A DNA stretch of 64,000 nucleotides from a virus (IMGVR_UViG_3300001305_000002:29340-93339); one strand, 5' to 3'. Counted from the first letter of the stretch, positions 9,243 to 63,992 are shown. Made by a program: numbers and translations. The notes: generated by a model not told the origin, from the letters alone.

Positions 9243-9375
9243 GCAATTCTGTGCTAGAGTGGTTTATTAGCCAGAGAGGGAGTGCACGAAACGGTGCGCC
9301 TAAACTCAGGTGGGCAAAACTTATATCAGAAGATGTAAAGTTGTCCGCGCAGGTTCGAATCCTGCCAGAATTGCA
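9243..9375 (+). ncRNA. tRNA-like RNA with 9-bp acceptor and two extended arms, no canonical anticodon loop
   Basis: GCAATTCTG/CAGAATTGC, D stem GCTA/TAGC, T arm GCAGG-TTCGAAT-CCTGC, long variable arm GTGGGCA/TGTCCGC. Confidence 0.65.
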
Positions 9376-9380
9376 GTTAA

Positions 9381-9451
9381 TGACCCATCGTCTAACGGCA
9401 GGACGACAGTTTTTGGCACTGTCTATCGAGGTTCGAATCCTTGTGGGTCAG
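9381..9451 (+). tRNA. tRNA-Gln(UUG)
   Basis: Acceptor TGACCCA/TGGGTCA, anticodon arm ACAGT-TTTTGGC-ACTGT. Confidence 0.85.
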
Positions 9452-9612
9452 CTTAAGCCAAATATATCTCCGTGTTTGACTCCCCTCATAAGGGATTAGC
9501 GAATAGGCTACAGCGGATCTGGTATGAGATATTGCGTTCATCCGTGCGAGTAGAGTAGCAGCGTAGTATAGTTGTGGGCTGCAACGTCAGATAGGGGTGA
9601 TTCTGACACAAT

Positions 9613-9691
9613 GGGGCTGTAGTTTAAAAGCGTAAAAGGATAAAACACCGGATTCATGCCGGAGATGTGGGTTCGAATTCCGCCAGTTCCA
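9613..9691 (+). ncRNA. Atypical tRNA: Ala-type acceptor (G3.U70, A73), 17-nt D loop, 4-bp anticodon stem (UCA or CAU register)
   Basis: GGGGCTG/CAGTTCC-A; CCGG-ATTCATG-CCGG; T arm GTGGG-TTCGAAT-TCCGC. Confidence 0.65.
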
Positions 9692-9815
9692 CAAGGTCGA
9701 AGTGTTTGTTAGTTTGTTGACGACCTTTAATAAAACATAAAACTAATCACTGAAGCAAGAATTTAAGTAAGGTGGCTTGCACAGTTCAGGTAGGGATGAG
9801 TCCTGACACTATATC

Positions 9816-9933
9816 TCCGCGATGATGGGTAATCTGAAACGAAGCAGCCGGAAGCTTTAAAGTAGGACATATTTATGGGTTAACCGACCATCCTGATAAG
9901 ATGGAATTGCAGGTTCGAATCCTGCTCGCGGAA
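9816..9933 (+). ncRNA. tRNA-Ile(GAU)-like RNA with about 45 extra nt in the D region
   Basis: Acceptor TCCGCGA/TCGCGGA, anticodon arm CCATC-CTGATAA-GATGG, T arm GCAGG-TTCGAAT-CCTGC. Confidence 0.7.
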
Positions 9934-10205
9934 CATGTCAGAGAATAAGAAAGAAGATAAGGAAGAAAAGCTAAAACCTAAGGGTCGAAACTTAACTTGT
10001 AAAGCTTTTTGCCTAGGTAACTGCATTTATCCTAAATGCTTAACTATGTAAGGTAAATATTTGTGACTGTTAAAAGAGTAAAAGGTAATTCTTGTGGAGC
10101 TAATCTACCTGTTAAGTTTACTGACTTAGCAAAAGGTGGTAAAGCAAAGGAATCTACTCACAAAGAAAACAACAGCCCACCTAAACGTGGCGAACATTAA
10201 TTCAT

Positions 10206-10240
10206 CAGCTACCTTAATCAATTAAGGTAGCTGTTTTTAT
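10206..10240 (+). terminator. Rho-independent terminator
   Basis: CAGCTACCTTAA/TTAAGGTAGCTG hairpin followed by TTTTTATTTT. Confidence 0.75.
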
Positions 10241-10254
10241 TTTAGGAGAACTGT

Positions 10255-11340
10255 ATGAATCTTGCTCTTAAGTACCGACCACGGCAGTTTGATGAGGTAG
10301 TAGGGCAGAAAGCTGTTAGTGTCATCCTGCAAGCCATGATCAACAAGAACACCCTCTCACAGGTTTTGTTATTTACTGGACCTTCAGGGGTAGGTAAGAC
10401 CAGCATGGCACGTATTATAGCGGCTCAGCTTAATTCTGAGGGGGCTACAGAGGTACACCAGAACACACATCCAGCCGTTGTAGAGATCGATGCTGCTTCT
10501 CATGGTTCTGTAAACGATATTCGCAGGCTTAAAACTACTGTTAGTTATGCTATTGCAGGACACCGAGTAACTATTATCGATGAAATCCATGCTATCAGCG
10601 ATGAAGCATTTACTGCGCTGTTGAATATTCTTGAGTCACCTCCTGAGAATAATACTTTTATTCTCATTACTACAGAATTAAATCGTGTTCCTATTACTAT
10701 CCGTCATCGAAGTGAACATTATCCCTTTAAGAAAGCTTCCGTAGATGATTTGGCTGCTCGTATCTGGTGGGTAGTTGCTCAAGAGAACTTTTCCATCGAT
10801 AACCAATTAGTCGACCTTATTGCTCAGCGTTCAGAAGGTTCTTTTAGAGAATCAATGATGCTACTTAAGCAGGTTATGGTAGCTGATATCTCTACTGTTG
10901 AGCAATACAATGAACTATTAGGAGAAGTAGATTATGGGCCAACACTTATTCAAGGTGCGCTGGGTGGCGCGAGCATGGCTGTCAGTGAGCTTGAAAATAC
11001 ATTCAATCGTAGTAGCCCCGAAGAAATTATGGAGCGAACACTAGAAACGCTACGAGACATTATGATCCTTCACAGCGGTAATACTCTTAATTACTCTGGT
11101 AAGGCTCTTGATTCAAGGATTGAATTGAAGTCTAAGTTGAATCCTGGTCAAATTCTTAAAGCTATGCGTATTATGTGGGATCTTCAGACTAAACTCAAGA
11201 ACGGTAACCTGAATCTAGGGTTGGTTATGGCATTTACTCTTATTGGTGACATTTTTAATCCTACAGAGATTGCTAAACCTGCTATTCAAAAGCCTCAAGC
11301 TGCTAAACCTATGAGTTTTGCTCAGATGCAGAATCGATGA
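10255..11340 (+). CDS. dnaX: DNA polymerase III clamp-loader gamma/tau subunit (gamma-length)
   Basis: LALKYRPRQFDEVVGQ, GPSGVGKTS, EIDAASHGSV, IIDEIH, ALLNILESPP. Confidence 0.92.
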   Translation: MNLALKYRPRQFDEVVGQKAVSVILQAMINKNTLSQVLLFTGPSGVGKTSMARIIAAQLNSEGATEVHQNTHPAVVEIDAASHGSVNDIRRLKTTVSYAIAGHRVTIIDEIHAISDEAFTALLNILESPPENNTFILITTELNRVPITIRHRSEHYPFKKASVDDLAARIWWVVAQENFSIDNQLVDLIAQRSEGSFRESMMLLKQVMVADISTVEQYNELLGEVDYGPTLIQGALGGASMAVSELENTFNRSSPEEIMERTLETLRDIMILHSGNTLNYSGKALDSRIELKSKLNPGQILKAMRIMWDLQTKLKNGNLNLGLVMAFTLIGDIFNPTEIAKPAIQKPQAAKPMSFAQMQNR

Positions 11341-11341
11341 C

Positions 11342-11370
11342 TTGACAGCATTTAATTCTACTAGTATGCT
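11342..11370 (+). promoter_or_regulatory. Sigma70-type promoter for the transfer-module region
   Basis: TTGACA-N17-TATGCT. Confidence 0.7.
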
Positions 11371-11414
11371 TCTGAGATGACTATAAAGCAACCAATTAAA
11401 GAATTGGATAACCA

Positions 11415-11750
11415 ATGAGCGACGCACAACTAGTCGCTGAAAAGATTATGGCTCTGGTGGACGAATATCCTTCAGAGCCATTTTCCTTTGAGCGCAAACA
11501 AGTAATAGAAAAATTACAAACCATACTTTTGAAATTTGCTGACATAGCTCAAGATGCTAAAGACTCCTTCTATCAAATTGGTTATGATGAAGGTAGGGAA
11601 CGAGCAGAGGAAGATAGTCAATCAGATATTCAAGAACTAGAAGATGAAATAGATGAACTCAGGCAAGAGTTGGGTGAGCTGAATAATAAGCTTGATCAGA
11701 CTTATCTAGAAGGATTTGAAGAAGGACAAAGTCAAGACAGAATGAGATGA
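11415..11750 (+). CDS. Acidic coiled-coil hypothetical protein
   Basis: YQIGYDEG...coiled coil...YLEGFEEG. Confidence 0.6.
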   Translation: MSDAQLVAEKIMALVDEYPSEPFSFERKQVIEKLQTILLKFADIAQDAKDSFYQIGYDEGRERAEEDSQSDIQELEDEIDELRQELGELNNKLDQTYLEGFEEGQSQDRMR

Positions 11751-62915: not shown

Positions 62916-63050
62916 GCTGTGAGCATATAAGTAGAAAACGAGGTTTTCCGTGCGTCCACTACACTTAGTCTGCATGAAGTGCAGACTCTAGGATTCGAAC
63001 CTAGCCTGGTCTTTTAGCATAAGATAATCGTCTTCAATTCGGCTCACAGC
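62916..63050 (-). ncRNA. YrlA-type Y RNA 2
   Basis: 9-bp terminal stem GCTGTGAGC/GCTCACAGC, GAGCCGAA...GATTATCT, T arm CTAGG-TTCGAAT-CCTAG, closed acceptor-like hairpin AGTCTGCA/TGCAGACT, D-like arm GTGT-AGTGG-ACGC; T tract follows. Confidence 0.88.
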
Positions 63051-63053
63051 CAG

Positions 63054-63127
63054 TGTCTTTGACAGGAATTGAACCTGTAACTTAATCTGGTTAAAATCCA
63101 GCGCTTTGCCTGTTAAGCTACAAAGAC
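63054..63127 (-). ncRNA. Atypical tRNA with 4-bp anticodon stem (Lys-UUU register; UUA if read in canonical numbering)
   Basis: GTCTTTG/CAAAGAC, CTGG-ATTTTAA-CCAG, ACAGG-TTCAATT-CCTGT. Confidence 0.6.
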
Positions 63128-63133
63128 ATATGA

Positions 63134-63197
63134 TACGAACATAAATTGATAATGGGTGTTATTCCAGTCTAAGATAACCCAAAATCTTCGGCTCGTA
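63134..63197 (-). ncRNA. Short Y RNA 3 (Ro-binding stem only, no tRNA module)
   Basis: TACGAGC/GTTCGTA terminal stem, GAGCCGAAG...GGTTATCT motif. Confidence 0.7.
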
Positions 63198-63212
63198 TTT
63201 AAAAAGTTTTAA

Positions 63213-63327
63213 GTTTGGACATGAGGTAGGATTCGGAAGTTCTCTCCGTAGAGAGTTGTTGGATTTGAACCAACTAAATTAATTTTCAATAAATTATTTT
63301 CGATAACCGAATCCAATCGGCCCAAAC
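63213..63327 (-). ncRNA. Y RNA 4 (T arm and hairpin, no clear D arm)
   Basis: GTTTGGGC/GTCCAAAC, GGGCCGAT...GGTTATCG, GTTGG-TTCAAAT-CCAAC, CTCTC-TACG-GAGAG. Confidence 0.75.
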
Positions 63328-63336
63328 AAAGTTTAA

Positions 63337-63510
63337 TCAAATATCAAATTCACCATCTTTTACACCAGCAACAAATGATTTCCATTCATTGTGAGTGTAC
63401 ATTACCATATCACCACTAACATCTCGAACAGTAACGAGATGATTATCGATCTTAACTTCTACACAAGTAGTATTACCGCAATATGATGATGTAATATATT
63501 CATTTTCCAT
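63337..63510 (-). CDS. DUF397 family small protein
   Basis: SSYCGNTTCVEV...VRD...THNEWKSFVAGVKDGEFD. Confidence 0.8.
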   Translation of the reverse strand: MENEYITSSYCGNTTCVEVKIDNHLVTVRDVSGDMVMYTHNEWKSFVAGVKDGEFDI

Positions 63511-63511
63511 G

Positions 63512-63583
63512 TAGCCCGAAAGGGAATTGAACCCTTCTCGCAAGATTGAGAATCTTGAATTCTAACCACTAAACTACCGGGCC
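63512..63583 (-). tRNA. tRNA-Glu(CUC)
   Basis: GGCCCGG/TCGGGCT, CAAGA-TTCTCAA-TCTTG. Confidence 0.85.
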
Positions 63584-63821
63584 ATTAAATGTCAATAAGC
63601 TACTCGTAAATCCGAGGTATACACTTTTAAGCAGGCTTGCCGCTTACTGACAAGATTTACTCTACAGCATCAAACTGAGGTTGTCAACTTATGACTTGCC
63701 GAAAAGTTTCTTTAGTGTAGTTGGCTTATCTTGATCTCGTTTAGTGCCACAATTCCAGCACTTCTTAGCATCTTCGCGTACCTCAACACTACAATGAGTG
63801 CATTTCCAATGTTTCCACATG

Positions 63822-63895
63822 TATCTACGGTCGGACTCGAACCGACACTGTAGGGATTTTAAGTCCCTTGCCTCCTGCCATTGGGCTACGTAGAC
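63822..63895 (-). tRNA. tRNA-Leu(UAA)
   Basis: GTCTACG/CGTAGAT, AGGGA-CTTAAAA-TCCCT, GTCGG-TTCGAGT-CCGAC; short variable loop. Confidence 0.85.
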
Positions 63896-63899
63896 TTGG

Positions 63900-63992
63900 C
63901 TTTGTGATCAGGAATAGTATCAGCATACGATCTGACGTTTACCTGAATTACTAGAAGCAAAATCTAGCGTTCTAACATTAAACTATCACAAA
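63900..63992 (-). ncRNA. tRNA-like RNA with a 29-nt T loop
   Basis: TTTGTGA/TCACAAA, D stem GTTT/GAAC, CTAGA-TTTTGCT-TCTAG, TCAGG/CCTGA enclosing 29 nt. Confidence 0.55.

What the first reader, a model, noticed from the sequence alone, without database searches (positions are those of the whole stretch)
9243..63992. A dozen tRNA mimics that keep the acceptor and T arm but alter the decoding end
Seen: besides about 16 normal tRNAs, elements at 9243, 9613, 9816, 21747, 23631, 25295, 25458, 30713, 58583, 62376, 63054 and 63900 have well-paired acceptor stems and mostly canonical T arms. Their anticodon arms are missing, shortened, over-paired or replaced by 45-55 nt inserts; in two cases the insert is in the D region or T loop. 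Stems remain paired while loops are remodelled, which argues against simple decay. Inference: a family of aminoacylatable or elbow-mimic RNAs acting as decoys for anticodon nucleases or tRNA-targeting defences, as processing signals, as Ro60 clients, or as intron-containing precursors healed by phage RNA-repair enzymes.
Basis: partly seen in the sequence, partly recalled or inferred. Interest (0 to 1): 0.75.

Follow-up and report, generated by a model that had tools for sequence, protein, structure and literature searches.

The report
Mixed set of phage tRNA look-alikes
Besides its ordinary tRNA genes, a soil phage carries about a dozen tRNA-shaped genes that are real and mostly conserved, but they are of several kinds (odd tRNAs, leaders placed before Y RNAs beside a Ro60 gene, leaders placed before small genes), not one new family of decoys.

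Summary
The window comes from a 108-kb uncultured soil phage. It is related to Streptomyces phages that encode a Ro-like protein, and it carries Ro60, PNKP and more than 30 tRNAs.

All 12 flagged sites hold tRNA-derived structures on the coding strand. Canonical T arms occur 31 times, against 2.5 in shuffles. The sites are heterogeneous:
- **Called as tRNA:** four reach Rfam's tRNA threshold (Lys-UUU; a 'Tyr' GUA with G33; a Thr-like with an 8-nt loop; an Ala-type acceptor with a stop-complementary loop). ARAGORN calls three of them at default settings.
- **Conserved in relatives with compensatory changes:** six families, so these are not decaying. They include a Gln-like RNA with a nearly invariant 29-nt T-loop insert and an Ile-like RNA with a D-region insert.
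- **Before Y RNAs:** two sit 8-13 nt upstream of canonical YrlA Y RNAs next to Ro60.
- **Before small ORFs:** two end in N73-C74 directly followed by the AUG of a small ORF. Many ordinary tRNAs of this clade do the same.
- **No ortholog found:** four.

Best reading: the conserved part is the acceptor/T-arm half that tRNA end-processing enzymes read. The units would be cut out like tRNAs and so define the ends of neighbouring RNAs, while the anticodon end diversifies. No data here support the decoy idea, and nothing supports the intron idea. Expression is untested.

This scan has found phage Ro60/Y-RNA modules before, on other genomes.

The parts
9243..9375 (+). 133-nt tRNA-shaped RNA: 7-10 bp acceptor, D arm, two long arms in place of the anticodon and variable arms, canonical T arm, G73-C74. 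It lies 7 nt upstream of tRNA-Gln(UUG).
   Evidence: Fold z = -5.71, 0 of 200 shuffles fold as well. No homolog in G002 or L120-L122.
9613..9692 (+). tRNA-like RNA with an alanine-type acceptor (G1-C72, G2-C71, G3.U70, A73), a 17-nt D loop, a 4-bp anticodon stem and the loop AUUCAUG (UCA).
   Evidence: Rfam tRNA 39.5 bits. In 5 genomes, acceptor pairs 5-7 and one T-stem pair change on both sides, pair 4 changes on one side (G.U/A-U), and G3.U70 never changes. Loops read UCA or UUA.
9816..9934 (+). Ile-like tRNA (loop CUGAUAA) whose D region carries a roughly 45-55-nt insert with a hairpin. A73-C74 is followed at once by the ATG of a 38-codon Cys-rich ORF (from 9935).
   Evidence: The anticodon stem has 3 compensatory pairs. 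The L122 ortholog has the loop CUGAGAA.
21746..21790 (-). 44-nt minihelix: 7-bp acceptor, 12-nt linker, canonical T arm, A73-C74.
   Evidence: z = -2.05. Nothing tRNA-like at the syntenic place in G002. Its acceptor (GTCTCGG/TCGAGAC) nearly matches that (GTCTCG/CGAGAC) of a 58-nt mini unit that precedes a YrlA in L115.
23631..23691 (-). 61-nt unit: 7-bp acceptor, one 6-bp hairpin, T arm with a mismatched first pair, A73-C74.
   Evidence: z = -3.73. No ortholog in G002. Similar 'acceptor + one hairpin + T arm' units precede YrlAs in L017, L115 and L117.
25295..25367 (-). tRNA-like unit with an over-paired anticodon arm (6-nt loop at most) and a non-canonical T loop (UGCAAGC).
   Evidence: z = -2.49. 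No clear ortholog. G002 has a different unit with a 6-nt loop beside its Tyr-like gene.
25458..25528 (-). 'tRNA-Tyr(GUA)' with G33 instead of U33, a short variable arm and C73.
   Evidence: ARAGORN, and Rfam 50.1 bits. The G002 ortholog keeps the loop CGGUAA with different, still paired stems. The G001 ortholog has a long hairpin in place of the anticodon loop.
30713..30788 (-). Thr-like tRNA with an 8-nt anticodon loop (CGUAGUAC).
   Evidence: ARAGORN calls 'tagt'; Rfam 46.7 bits. Its nearest relatives are the tRNA-Thr(GGU) genes of L113 and L114, which share its anticodon stem. No unit at the syntenic place in G001 or G002.
58583..58683 (-). tRNA-shaped RNA with acceptor, D arm and T arm, and a 53-75-nt module in place of the anticodon arm. 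G73-C74 is followed at once by the ATG of a 69-codon ORF.
   Evidence: Homologs in L017, L113, L114, L115 and L118. The acceptor sequence differs but stays paired. Cores GAGAAMGC and AGUAUCAGG are conserved. A start codon sits at +2 in 5 of 6 genomes. No thermodynamic signal.
62376..62470 (-). Structured unit with a 7-bp T arm, directly 5' of YrlA-2 and beside the Ro60 gene. It is part of the Y RNA array.
   Evidence: Homologs in L017 and L113, with compensatory changes in the internal helix and in the T stem.
63054..63127 (-). tRNA-Lys(UUU) with a 4-bp anticodon stem, 8 nt upstream of YrlA-1.
   Evidence: ARAGORN, and Rfam 54.3 bits. The L113 ortholog is Arg(UCU). At the same place L017 and L118 have units with degenerate anticodon arms.
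63897..63992 (-). Gln-like tRNA (U1-A72, G73, loop UUUUGCU) with a 29-nt T loop containing a hairpin, and an encoded CCA. It abuts tRNA-Leu(UAA).
   Evidence: 5 genomes: 25 pairs are 100% paired, 7 pairs have changes on both sides, and 0 of 500 shuffles reach this. The T-loop insert is nearly invariant. Four orthologs have 8-nt loops.
62916..63050 (-). YrlA-1, a canonical circularly permuted tRNA-like Y RNA. It is context, not one of the 12.
   Evidence: GAGCCGAA motif, and T arm, closed acceptor-like hairpin and D arm inside a closing stem.
62230..62367 (-). YrlA-2, a second Y RNA directly upstream of Ro60 (context).
60603..62249 (-). Ro60 ortholog (TROVE plus Ro60 vWA domains).
   Evidence: Pfam 110.5 and 202.5 bits; phrog_850.

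Best explanation
The twelve elements are genuine tRNA-derived genes, co-oriented with early genes, but they are not one family.

They share the half of a tRNA that RNase P, RNase Z and the CCA-adding enzyme read: the acceptor stem stacked on a T arm, then a discriminator and C74. I infer that they are excised from polycistronic transcripts like tRNAs. That excision would have two effects. It yields stable tRNA-shaped RNAs, and it sets the ends of whatever lies next to them. The anticodon or D end is then free to change.

Within this frame:
- 63054, 30713 and 25458 are working or near-working tRNAs with odd anticodon arms.
- 63900 (Gln-like), 9613 (alanine acceptor, stop-complementary loop) and 9816 (Ile-like) are conserved non-canonical tRNAs whose loop triplet is under constraint.
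- 63054 and 62376 also serve as 5' leaders of the two YrlA Y RNAs beside Ro60.
- 9816 and 58583 serve as 5' leaders that would release small ORFs as near-leaderless mRNAs (C-AUG).
- 9243, 21747, 23631 and 25295 are lineage-specific units of the same build whose status is open.

Shown: the structures, their conservation and covariation, and the junction geometry. Inferred: transcription, cleavage, charging and any trans-acting role.
For: - T arms and acceptor stems are far above chance.
- 37 of 45 T-arm units in the genome encode C74. Ten of the 12 flagged elements do so clearly, 25295 does only in one of two registers, and 25458 does not.
- Covariation: 63900 has 7 compensatory pairs and 0 of 500 shuffles reach it. 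9613 has 4. 9816 has 4. The acceptor of 58583 is entirely different in W and L017 yet paired. The stems of 25458 differ from G002 yet stay paired, with the loop kept.
- Junction with ORFs: 12 of 45 units in this genome have a start codon exactly 2 nt after the discriminator, opening an ORF of at least 30 codons. The background is 2.7%. In close relatives 35 of 184 are at offset +2, against 4, 1 and 0 at offsets 1, 3 and 4. The junction is kept for 9816 in 3 of 3 genomes and for 58583 in 5 of 6.
- Junction with Y RNAs: 10 of 11 YrlA 5' motifs in the close clade lie 6-13 nt behind a tRNA or tRNA-like unit. These units range from real tRNAs (Lys, Val; the Arg ortholog) to 56-60-nt mini units. In distant Ro60 phages the figure is 7 of 15, against 1.5% at random positions.
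- At one syntenic site the unit is Lys-UUU (W), Arg-UCU (L113), a unit with a 5-nt loop (L017) or a tetraloop unit (L118). Acceptor and T arm stay intact in all.
- Established knowledge: acceptor/T-arm minihelices are sufficient substrates for RNase P, RNase Z and the CCA-adding enzyme. In Streptomyces most tRNAs lack an encoded CCA, and leaderless mRNAs are common (PMC4681348).
Against: - No transcript data exist for this phage, so no cleavage site is shown.
- 63900 has a remodelled T loop, which should weaken recognition of the tRNA elbow. Its nearly invariant insert points to a specific partner rather than a mere handle.
- 9613, 21747, 23631, 25295 and 30713 are followed by hairpins or by ordinary ORFs about 28-30 nt downstream (the spacing expected for a Shine-Dalgarno-led start), not by abutting RNAs.
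- The constrained loop triplets (UUG, GUA, UUA/UCA) are not explained by a processing role.
- 58583 is thermodynamically unremarkable.
- The host is unknown.
Confidence: 0.5

Rival explanations
1. Counter-defence. The units with altered anticodon loops (G33, 8-nt loops, C37, tetraloops) are nuclease-resistant substitutes for host tRNAs, or competitive decoys for host anticodon nucleases and other tRNA-targeting toxins. They would work together with the phage's RNA-repair enzymes.
For: - Loop triplets are kept while the flanking loop positions and loop length change: UUG in 5 of 5 copies of 63900, and CGGUAA with G33 in 25458 and its G002 ortholog.
- Loops of 6 and 8 nt recur across relatives.
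- The phage encodes PNKP. Relatives encode an Rnl1-type RNA ligase and RlaP next to it.
- Published precedent: phage tRNAs carry anticodon-loop changes predicted to block VapC-type cleavage (PMC10264068), and phage tRNAs rescue infection from retron effectors that target tRNA (PMC11555353).
Against: - No host or host nuclease is known.
- Units without any anticodon loop (58583, 9243, 21747, 23631) offer no anticodon-loop target.
- The anticodon differs between orthologs (GAU/GAG in 9816, UUU/UCU in 63054, UCA/UUA in 9613). That is odd for a decoy of one specific nuclease.
- Nothing here was tested.
Confidence: 0.3
2. All or most of the units are RNA partners or substrates of the phage Ro60, that is, an expanded and architecturally diverse Y RNA repertoire.
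For: - A Ro60 gene with two canonical YrlA units lies in the window.
- 62376 and 63054 are physically joined to these units.
- The 58583 family carries RNCGAA...AGUAUC just 5' of its T arm. This resembles the YrlA 5' strand GNCGAA...CGAUUAUC.
- Chen et al. 2014 (PMC4201824) describe YrlB and Deinococcus Yrn1 as Ro-bound RNAs with T arms in other orientations.
Against: - Eight of the 12 lie 27-53 kb from the Ro60 gene; 58583 lies about 2 kb downstream of it, and 63900 about 1.6 kb upstream.
- None of the 12 carries the GNCGAA helix in a closing stem.
- The similarity between 9243 and the 58583 family is weak (significant against one homolog only).
- Rfam finds no Y RNA family here even at E <= 10.
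Confidence: 0.15
3. The units without orthologs (9243, 21747, 23631, 25295), and perhaps 30713, are recent tRNA duplicates on their way to loss. They would be by-products of rapid tRNA gene turnover with no function of their own.
For: - There is no homolog at the syntenic places of G001 or G002.
- tRNA content differs strongly between close relatives.
- 25295 has a non-canonical T loop and an A.A pair at the top of its acceptor.
Against: - Their stems are intact: 7 of 7 acceptor and 5 of 5 T-stem pairs in 9243 and 21747. They fold better than shuffles (z = -5.7, -2.05, -3.7 and -2.5).
- Three keep N73-C74 clearly, and 25295 does in one register.
- A precise loss of the D and anticodon arms that keeps both acceptor strands is not what random deletion gives.
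- Mini units of the same build recur in a fixed context in three relatives.
Confidence: 0.2
4. The inserts are introns. The units would be precursors of ordinary tRNAs that are spliced or healed by the phage RNA-repair enzymes.
For: Inserts of 22-75 nt sit inside otherwise tRNA-like frames, and the phage clade has PNKP and RNA ligases.
Against: - The inserts are too short for group I introns.
- The only default-threshold intron calls by ARAGORN are spurious. One runs into the next ORF, and the other is an 871-nt 'intron' at 16229-17189.
- The T-loop insert of 63900 is the most conserved part of that RNA.
- The D-region insert of 9816 has a hairpin with a conserved loop.
- Removing either insert does not leave a canonical D or T arm.
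Confidence: 0.03

Closest known systems
YrlA/YrlB Y RNAs with bacterial and phage Ro60 (Rsr); Chen et al. 2014, PMC4201824
   Same: A Ro60 gene with adjacent small RNAs that contain tRNA-like T and D arms. Two units in the window have the published YrlA layout: a GNCGAA 5' strand, then T arm, closed acceptor-like hairpin, D arm and a closing stem. 62376 is part of this array.
   Different: The 12 flagged units have open acceptor ends in normal tRNA order, not the permuted YrlA order. Most lie far from Ro60. The tRNA or tRNA-like unit placed 6-13 nt in front of each YrlA is not something I found described. Rfam gives no Y RNA match here.
Phage tRNAs with anticodon-loop changes proposed or shown to escape host tRNA nucleases (van den Berg et al. 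2023, PMC10264068; Azam et al. 2024, PMC11555353)
   Same: A tRNA-rich phage of an actinobacterial-type lineage, with anticodon loops that depart from the canonical form while the rest of the tRNA is kept.
   Different: The published cases are base substitutions in otherwise standard 7-nt loops of decoding tRNAs. Here the changes include G33, 6- and 8-nt loops, tetraloops, long replacement arms, and inserts in the D region and T loop.
tRNA punctuation and tRNA-like 't-elements' that define mRNA ends in mitochondria (for example Arabidopsis, PMC1920247)
   Same: tRNAs or tRNA-like structures directly abut other RNAs. Only the part read by RNase P and RNase Z needs to be kept, and the resulting mRNAs have almost no leader.
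   Different: That system is organellar and is shown by end mapping. Here it is a phage of bacteria, and only the sequence geometry is shown (N73-C74-AUG, and the tRNA-like-to-YrlA spacing).
T4 RNA C and RNA D, stable small RNAs from the T4 tRNA gene region (PMC3014915)
   Same: Small non-tRNA RNAs encoded among phage tRNA genes, with unknown function.
   Different: No sequence relation was tested. The T4 RNAs are two, not a large and varied set. I did not compare the structures.
tRNA-like domain of tmRNA (relevant to 9613 only)
   Same: A GGG...-type acceptor with G3.U70 and A73, plus a canonical T arm. A more distant relative (G005) has a standard tmRNA with a similar acceptor.
   Different: 9613 is 80 nt long with a D arm and a short anticodon-like arm. 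It has no tag reading frame or pseudoknots, and ARAGORN's tmRNA mode does not call it.

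Membership tests
tRNA (Rfam RF00005) | Covariance-model score at or above the gathering score of 29 bits | tested here: inconclusive
   Met by 25458 (50.1), 30713 (46.7), 63054 (54.3) and 9613 (39.5). 9816 reaches 25.2 bits over a partial match. 9243, 21747, 23631, 25295, 58583, 62376 and 63900 give no tRNA match at E <= 10.
tRNA (decoding-competent) | 7-nt anticodon loop with U33 and a purine at position 37 on a 5-bp stem | tested here: not met
   Loop rule met only by 9816 (CUGAUAA) and 63054 (AUUUUAA, but on a 4-bp stem). 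25458 has G33. 30713 has 8 nt. 63900 has C37, and 4 of its 5 orthologs have 8 nt. 9613 has a 4-bp stem and a pyrimidine at 37. The rest have no such loop.
YrlA-type Y RNA | Encoded next to a Ro60 (TROVE) gene | tested here: met
   Ro60 lies at 60603-62249(-). 62376 and 63054 lie within 0.9 kb upstream, 63900 about 1.6 kb upstream and 58583 about 2 kb downstream. The other 8 lie 27-53 kb away.
YrlA-type Y RNA | Closing stem whose 5' strand carries GNCGAA(N)G, enclosing T arm, closed acceptor-like hairpin and D arm in that order | tested here: not met
   Met by the two neighbouring units at 62916-63050 and 62230-67, but by none of the 12 flagged elements. Those have normal tRNA order and open acceptor ends.
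YrlA-type Y RNA | Match to an Rfam Y RNA covariance model | tested here: not met
   No Y RNA family appears among matches at E <= 10 in 62200-63150 or in the whole window.
YrlA-type Y RNA | Bound by Ro60 | not testable with these tools
   Needs immunoprecipitation.
tmRNA (for 9613) | Alanine-type acceptor (G3.U70, A73) with a T arm | tested here: met
   Invariant in 5 genomes, while acceptor pairs 5-7 change on both sides.
tmRNA (for 9613) | Tag reading frame with a resume codon and pseudoknots; call by a tmRNA finder | tested here: not met
   ARAGORN's tmRNA mode finds nothing in G000, G001 or G002. The element is 80 nt long.
Nonsense-suppressor tRNA (for 9613) | Anticodon complementary to a stop codon | tested here: inconclusive
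   The 7-nt loops read UCA (W) and UUA (L120, L121). The 8-nt loops AUUUAAUG (G002, L122) contain UUA, but their register is ambiguous.
Nonsense-suppressor tRNA (for 9613) | Phage genes that need read-through or stop-codon reassignment | tested here: not met
   All three stop codons end long ORFs at comparable rates, and there is no excess of single in-frame stops of one kind. Single programmed read-through sites were not excluded.
tRNA punctuation / t-elements | A tRNA-like structure directly abutting the end of another RNA | tested here: met
   N73-C74-AUG follows 9816, 58583 and 9 ordinary tRNAs. The junction is enriched at offset +2 in relatives. tRNA-like units lie 6-13 nt before YrlA.
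tRNA punctuation / t-elements | Cleavage by RNase P and RNase Z at these junctions | not testable with these tools
   No RNA run holds this phage.
Intron-containing tRNA | An insert at a recognised intron position with intron features, leaving a canonical tRNA when removed | tested here: not met
   ARAGORN's intron mode gives only spurious long 'introns'. The inserts lie in the T loop or D region and are conserved or structured.

The most novel reading that the evidence does not exclude
This clade of soil actinophage-like viruses uses tRNA-shaped modules as general punctuation. Excision by the host tRNA-end enzymes would release Y RNAs for the phage Ro60 and small ORFs as near-leaderless C-AUG mRNAs. 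Once freed from decoding, some modules would have become new RNAs: a Gln-like RNA with an invariant T-loop insert, and an alanine-accepting RNA whose loop pairs with stop codons (a possible Ala-inserting stop reader or tmRNA substitute). That would be a bacterial-virus counterpart of mitochondrial tRNA punctuation, and a source of new tRNA-derived effectors.
Probability: 0.3. Interest if true: 0.75.

Novelty: new variant of a known kind. Interest (0 to 1): 0.6.

Why it matters
Phage tRNA genes are usually counted with tRNA finders and explained by codon usage or, more recently, by escape from host tRNA nucleases. This genome and its relatives show that about a quarter of the tRNA-shaped genes of one phage lineage fall outside those finders. 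They are nonetheless conserved with compensatory changes.

The contexts suggest a testable rule. The acceptor/T-arm half is kept because it is a cutting signal that also makes the ends of Y RNAs and of small leaderless genes. If end mapping confirms this, three things follow:
- It explains why tRNA genes are scattered between small early genes in these phages.
- It gives a processing route for phage Y RNAs.
- It singles out two unusual RNAs (63900 and 9613) for biochemical work on charging and partners.

If end mapping does not confirm it, the elements remain a catalogue of odd tRNAs of the kind expected under selection by anticodon nucleases.

Tried and rejected
- **Cultured phages:** no match, by megablast for 9000-14000 and by blastn for 9453-9692 and the 63900 unit.
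- **Single-protein scan** of viral contigs with the clamp loader found nothing.
- **RNA runs:** no RNA holder is listed for 57300-64000, only soil and rhizosphere DNA runs. Expression is therefore untested, and I did not lay reads.
- **Rfam:** no Y RNA family match, even at E <= 10 on a short stretch.
- **ARAGORN intron mode:** the call 58582-59045 (370-nt 'intron') pairs the T arm of 58583 with a stretch inside the upstream ORF region. I reject it.
- **ARAGORN at lowered thresholds** gives 61-139 calls, mostly noise. I used it only as a pointer.
- **Stop-codon reassignment or a genome-wide read-through signal** that could explain the UCA/UUA loops of 9613: none found.
- **tmRNA:** none in G000-G002, one in the distant G005 but not syntenic. 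The idea that 9613 plus the conserved upstream block is a reduced tmRNA stays speculative.
- **RNAalifold on six copies of 58583** recovered only the D and T arms. The inner module could not be aligned structurally, and single-sequence folds disagree.
- **Similarity of 9243 to the 58583 family:** only a 17-nt match to one homolog (p about 0.003 before correcting for six tests). I treat it as a lead.
- **9243, 21747, 23631, 25295:** nhmmer and synteny searches in G001, G002 and the metagenome loci found no orthologs.
- **Covariance models:** I built none, because nhmmer already showed that each family is confined to the few close relatives held.

Full report
**What the window is.**
The window is bases 29340-93339 of a 108-kb IMG/VR virus record that is about 80% complete. 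It has about 41% G+C. Genes run on the + strand up to about 18 kb and on the - strand after that. It encodes a polynucleotide kinase-phosphatase, a NADAR protein, ribonucleotide reductase, a clamp loader and a Ro60 ortholog with TROVE and Ro60-vWA domains at 60603-62249(-).

The Ro60 protein has hundreds of relatives on 100-140-kb phage contigs from soil. It is 55-57% identical to the 'Ro-like RNA binding protein' of Streptomyces phages such as Gilson and Comrade. DNA of the window is found only in soil and rhizosphere metagenomes. Close relatives carry an Rnl1-type RNA ligase and RlaP next to the kinase-phosphatase, and a second RNA ligase near Ro60.

**Checking the observation.**
ARAGORN at default settings finds 20 tRNAs in the window and 33 in the whole record. 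Rfam finds 15-16 above threshold.

I scanned both strands for a perfect 5-bp stem around a TTCRANN loop. This gives 31 T arms, against a mean of 2.45 in 100 dinucleotide shuffles. Of these, 23 are followed by a 7-nt strand that pairs perfectly with a strand upstream, against 0.5 in shuffles. T arms that ARAGORN does not call lie at 9243, 9613, 9816, 21747, 58583 and 62376, in the two YrlA units, and at a few further places. 23631, 25295 and 63900 escape that scan only because of a mismatched T stem, an unusual T loop and a 29-nt T loop.

So the structures are there and are not chance. However, three of the twelve (25458, 30713, 63054) are called as tRNAs by both programs, and a fourth (9613) by Rfam only. 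The acceptor of 62376 is doubtful, and 58583 has no energetic signal of its own.

**Relatives used.**
- Two related virus records were fetched whole: G001 (105 kb, incomplete, lacking the region that matches window positions up to about 22 kb) and G002 (136 kb, complete). Both are about 70% identical in coding DNA.
- Six metagenome loci around Ro60 (L113-L118) and four around the clamp loader (L119-L122) were added through exact-protein look-ups.
- Eighty Ro60 loci from viral contigs served for wider counts.

**Families with conservation and compensatory change.**

*63900.* It has orthologs in four other genomes, always between two tRNA-Leu genes.
- In the 5-sequence alignment all 125 pair cells are standard pairs. 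Seven pairs change on both sides, and none of 500 shuffles reaches the observed values. The five anticodon-stem pairs all covary.
- The 29-nt T loop, with its inner hairpin, is nearly invariant.
- The loop keeps UUG. It is 7 nt here and 8 nt in the other four.
- U1-A72 and G73 are those of bacterial tRNA-Gln. That these are Gln-type features is from my own knowledge, not tested here.
- CCA is encoded, unlike in the ordinary tRNAs of this phage.

*9613.* It has orthologs in four genomes.
- G1-C72, G2-C71, G3.U70 and A73 never change, while pairs 5-7 change on both sides.
- The loops read AUUCAUG, AUUUACG, AAUUACG and twice AUUUAAUG. They therefore contain UCA or UUA.

*9816.* It has orthologs in two genomes. 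The anticodon stem has three compensatory pairs. The loop is CUGAUAA twice and CUGAGAA once. The D-region insert contains a hairpin with a conserved GCCGGA loop.

*58583.* It has homologs in five genomes. D and T arms are kept, and the acceptor has a different sequence but stays paired. The inner module has a variable hairpin and conserved cores.

*25458.* Its G002 ortholog has entirely different but paired acceptor and anticodon stems and keeps the loop CGGUAA with G33. The G001 ortholog has the same D stem and trailer, but a long hairpin where the loop should be.

*62376.* It is conserved in two genomes, with compensatory changes in an internal helix and in a 7-bp T stem.

**Elements without orthologs.**
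9243, 21747, 23631 and 25295 have no counterpart at the syntenic places of G001 or G002, nor in the other loci. 30713 has none at its place either. It resembles the tRNA-Thr(GGU) genes of two relatives and shares their anticodon stem, with one extra base in the loop.

The four singletons fold better than shuffles (z from -2.05 to -5.7). Three clearly keep the discriminator-plus-C signature, and 25295 does so in one of two registers. Beyond that their status is open.

**Context: Y RNAs.**
Upstream of Ro60 lie two units with the published YrlA layout (PMC4201824). Each has a closing stem whose 5' strand carries GAGYCGAA, then a T arm, a closed acceptor-like hairpin and a D arm. Rfam does not match them to any Y RNA family, so this assignment rests on motif, topology and position.

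63054 (tRNA-Lys) ends 8 nt before the first unit, and 62376 ends 13 nt before the second. This is a rule in the clade. Ten of eleven YrlA 5' motifs in nine close loci are preceded at 6-13 nt by a T arm plus acceptor strand.

The preceding unit varies. It is a normal tRNA in some genomes (Lys-UUU here, Val-GAC in L016; the L113 ortholog of 63054 is Arg-UCU). Elsewhere it is a tRNA with an 8-nt loop, a unit with a tetraloop, or a 56-60-nt mini unit made of an acceptor, one hairpin and a T arm. One mini unit (L115) has almost the same acceptor as 21747, and the mini units have the same build as 23631.

In more distant Ro60 phages, 7 of 15 such motifs are preceded in the same way, against 1.5% of random positions.

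**Context: start codons.**
In the whole record, 37 of 45 T-arm units have C at position 74. Twelve of the 45 have ATG or GTG exactly two bases after the discriminator, opening an ORF of at least 30 codons. The background for a 4-base window is 2.7%. Nine of the twelve are ordinary tRNAs, and the others include 9816 and 58583.

In Ro60 loci of close relatives, 35 of 184 units have the start codon at offset +2, against 4, 1 and 0 at offsets 1, 3 and 4. In Streptomyces-phage-like relatives the figure is 46 of 514, and in distant ones 5 of 296. The junction is kept in all three copies of 9816 and in five of six copies of 58583.

**Explanation.**
The part common to all twelve, and to the ordinary tRNAs, is the acceptor/T-arm stack with N73-C74. 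From established work, RNase P, RNase Z and the CCA-adding enzyme need only this half. In Streptomyces most tRNAs lack an encoded CCA, and leaderless mRNAs are frequent (PMC4681348).

I therefore read the units as excision modules. Cutting them out yields tRNA-shaped RNAs. It also creates the 5' ends of the YrlA RNAs and of small mRNAs that start at C-AUG, much like mitochondrial tRNA punctuation and plant mitochondrial t-elements (PMC1920247). Where decoding is not needed, the anticodon arm is free to shrink, close up or grow. The syntenic series Lys / Arg / 5-nt loop / tetraloop in front of YrlA-1 shows exactly that.

This reading does not explain three things: the constrained loop triplets (UUG, GUA with G33, UUA/UCA), the invariant T-loop insert of 63900, and the alanine identity set of 9613. 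These point to additional trans-acting roles. Escape from, or titration of, host tRNA nucleases is the obvious candidate, given the repair enzymes and published precedents (PMC10264068, PMC11555353). Nothing here tests it.

For 9613, an alanine-charged reader of stop codons or a stand-in for the tmRNA that this sub-clade lacks is possible. There is no sign of stop-codon reassignment.

**Comparison with what is known.**
- Phage Ro60 with YrlA-type RNAs is known (PMC4201824), and this scan has met it repeatedly on other genomes.
- Altered anticodon loops in phage tRNAs are known as a concept.
- Small RNAs of unknown role among phage tRNA genes are known from T4 (PMC3014915).
- I did not find four things described in the papers I searched: the breadth of remodelling here (T-loop and D-region inserts, mini units), the fixed tRNA-like leader in front of YrlA, the N73-C74-AUG junction, and the alanine-type RNA with stop-complementary loops.

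I therefore class the finding as a new variant of known kinds, not a new category and not a single new family.

**Limits.**
- The host is unknown.
- There are no transcript data.
- The alignments hold only 2-6 sequences of closely related phages, so the shuffle statistics overstate independence.
- The inner fold of 58583 and the true fold of 62376 are unresolved.
- Four elements could not be compared at all.

Noticed in passing
window 7791, 9933, 43041, 58583, 59890, 63512, 63822 (discriminator positions); also beyond the window and in L016-L050: Many tRNAs and tRNA-like units end in N73-C74 followed at once by ATG or GTG opening a small ORF. This holds for 12 of 45 units in this genome, against a 2.7% background. 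The start codon sits sharply at offset +2, also in close and Streptomyces-phage-like relatives, and only rarely in distant Ro60 phages.
   Followed up: partly
window 62916-63050(-) and 62230-62367(-); L016, L017, L115-L118: Almost every YrlA unit of the clade is preceded at 6-13 nt by a tRNA or a reduced tRNA-like unit. This suggests that the Y RNA 5' end is made by tRNA 3' processing.
   Followed up: partly
Fold z = -3.9.
   Followed up: partly
window 63250-63274 (-) and 47507-47553 (-): A canonical T arm with no acceptor partner between tRNA-Glu and tRNA-Lys, and a 47-nt minihelix-like hairpin with a non-canonical loop just upstream of tRNA-Ile(UAU).
   Followed up: no
window 9453-9610 (+): A non-coding block of about 150 nt between tRNA-Gln(UUG) and 9613 is conserved in G002, L120, L121 and L122 (about 85% identity to G002). 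A hairpin of the form GUCAGAUAGGGRUGAUUCUGAC precedes 9613, and a similar one precedes 9816. Possibly another small RNA or a processing or promoter signal.
   Followed up: no
window 9693-9740 (+): 9613 is followed by a hairpin (AAGGUCG...CGACCUU) that is kept in G002 and L122 with changes that preserve pairing. It has no U tract.
   Followed up: no
window 63054-63127 (-) versus L113:9550-9623: Orthologous tRNAs differ by one anticodon base (UUU Lys versus UCU Arg), with a compensatory change in the 4-bp anticodon stem. This looks like an anticodon switch between close relatives.
   Followed up: partly
G005:83574-83871 (distant relative); G000-G002: The distant relative encodes a standard tmRNA (tag ANSKNAFALAA). 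No tmRNA is called in this genome or its two close relatives, one of which is complete.
   Followed up: partly
window about 58865-58895 (-): A sigma-70-like TTGACA / 17 nt / TAGACT motif lies upstream of the non-coding stretch that holds the 58737 unit and 58583.
   Followed up: no
window 58690-58700 (-); L120 about 9050; L122 about 9165; L118 about 7995: A short motif AAUUACCUC(AG) recurs upstream of tRNA-like units in several genomes. It resembles the 3' end of 16S rRNA. Meaning unknown.
   Followed up: no
G001 (L017:2357-2426, 8633-8707, 8783-8860), L117:3468-3538, L118:4336-4411: Relatives carry their own units with 6-nt and 8-nt anticodon loops or tetraloops, at places where this genome has ordinary tRNAs or nothing. 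Turnover of such units is therefore fast across the clade.
   Followed up: partly
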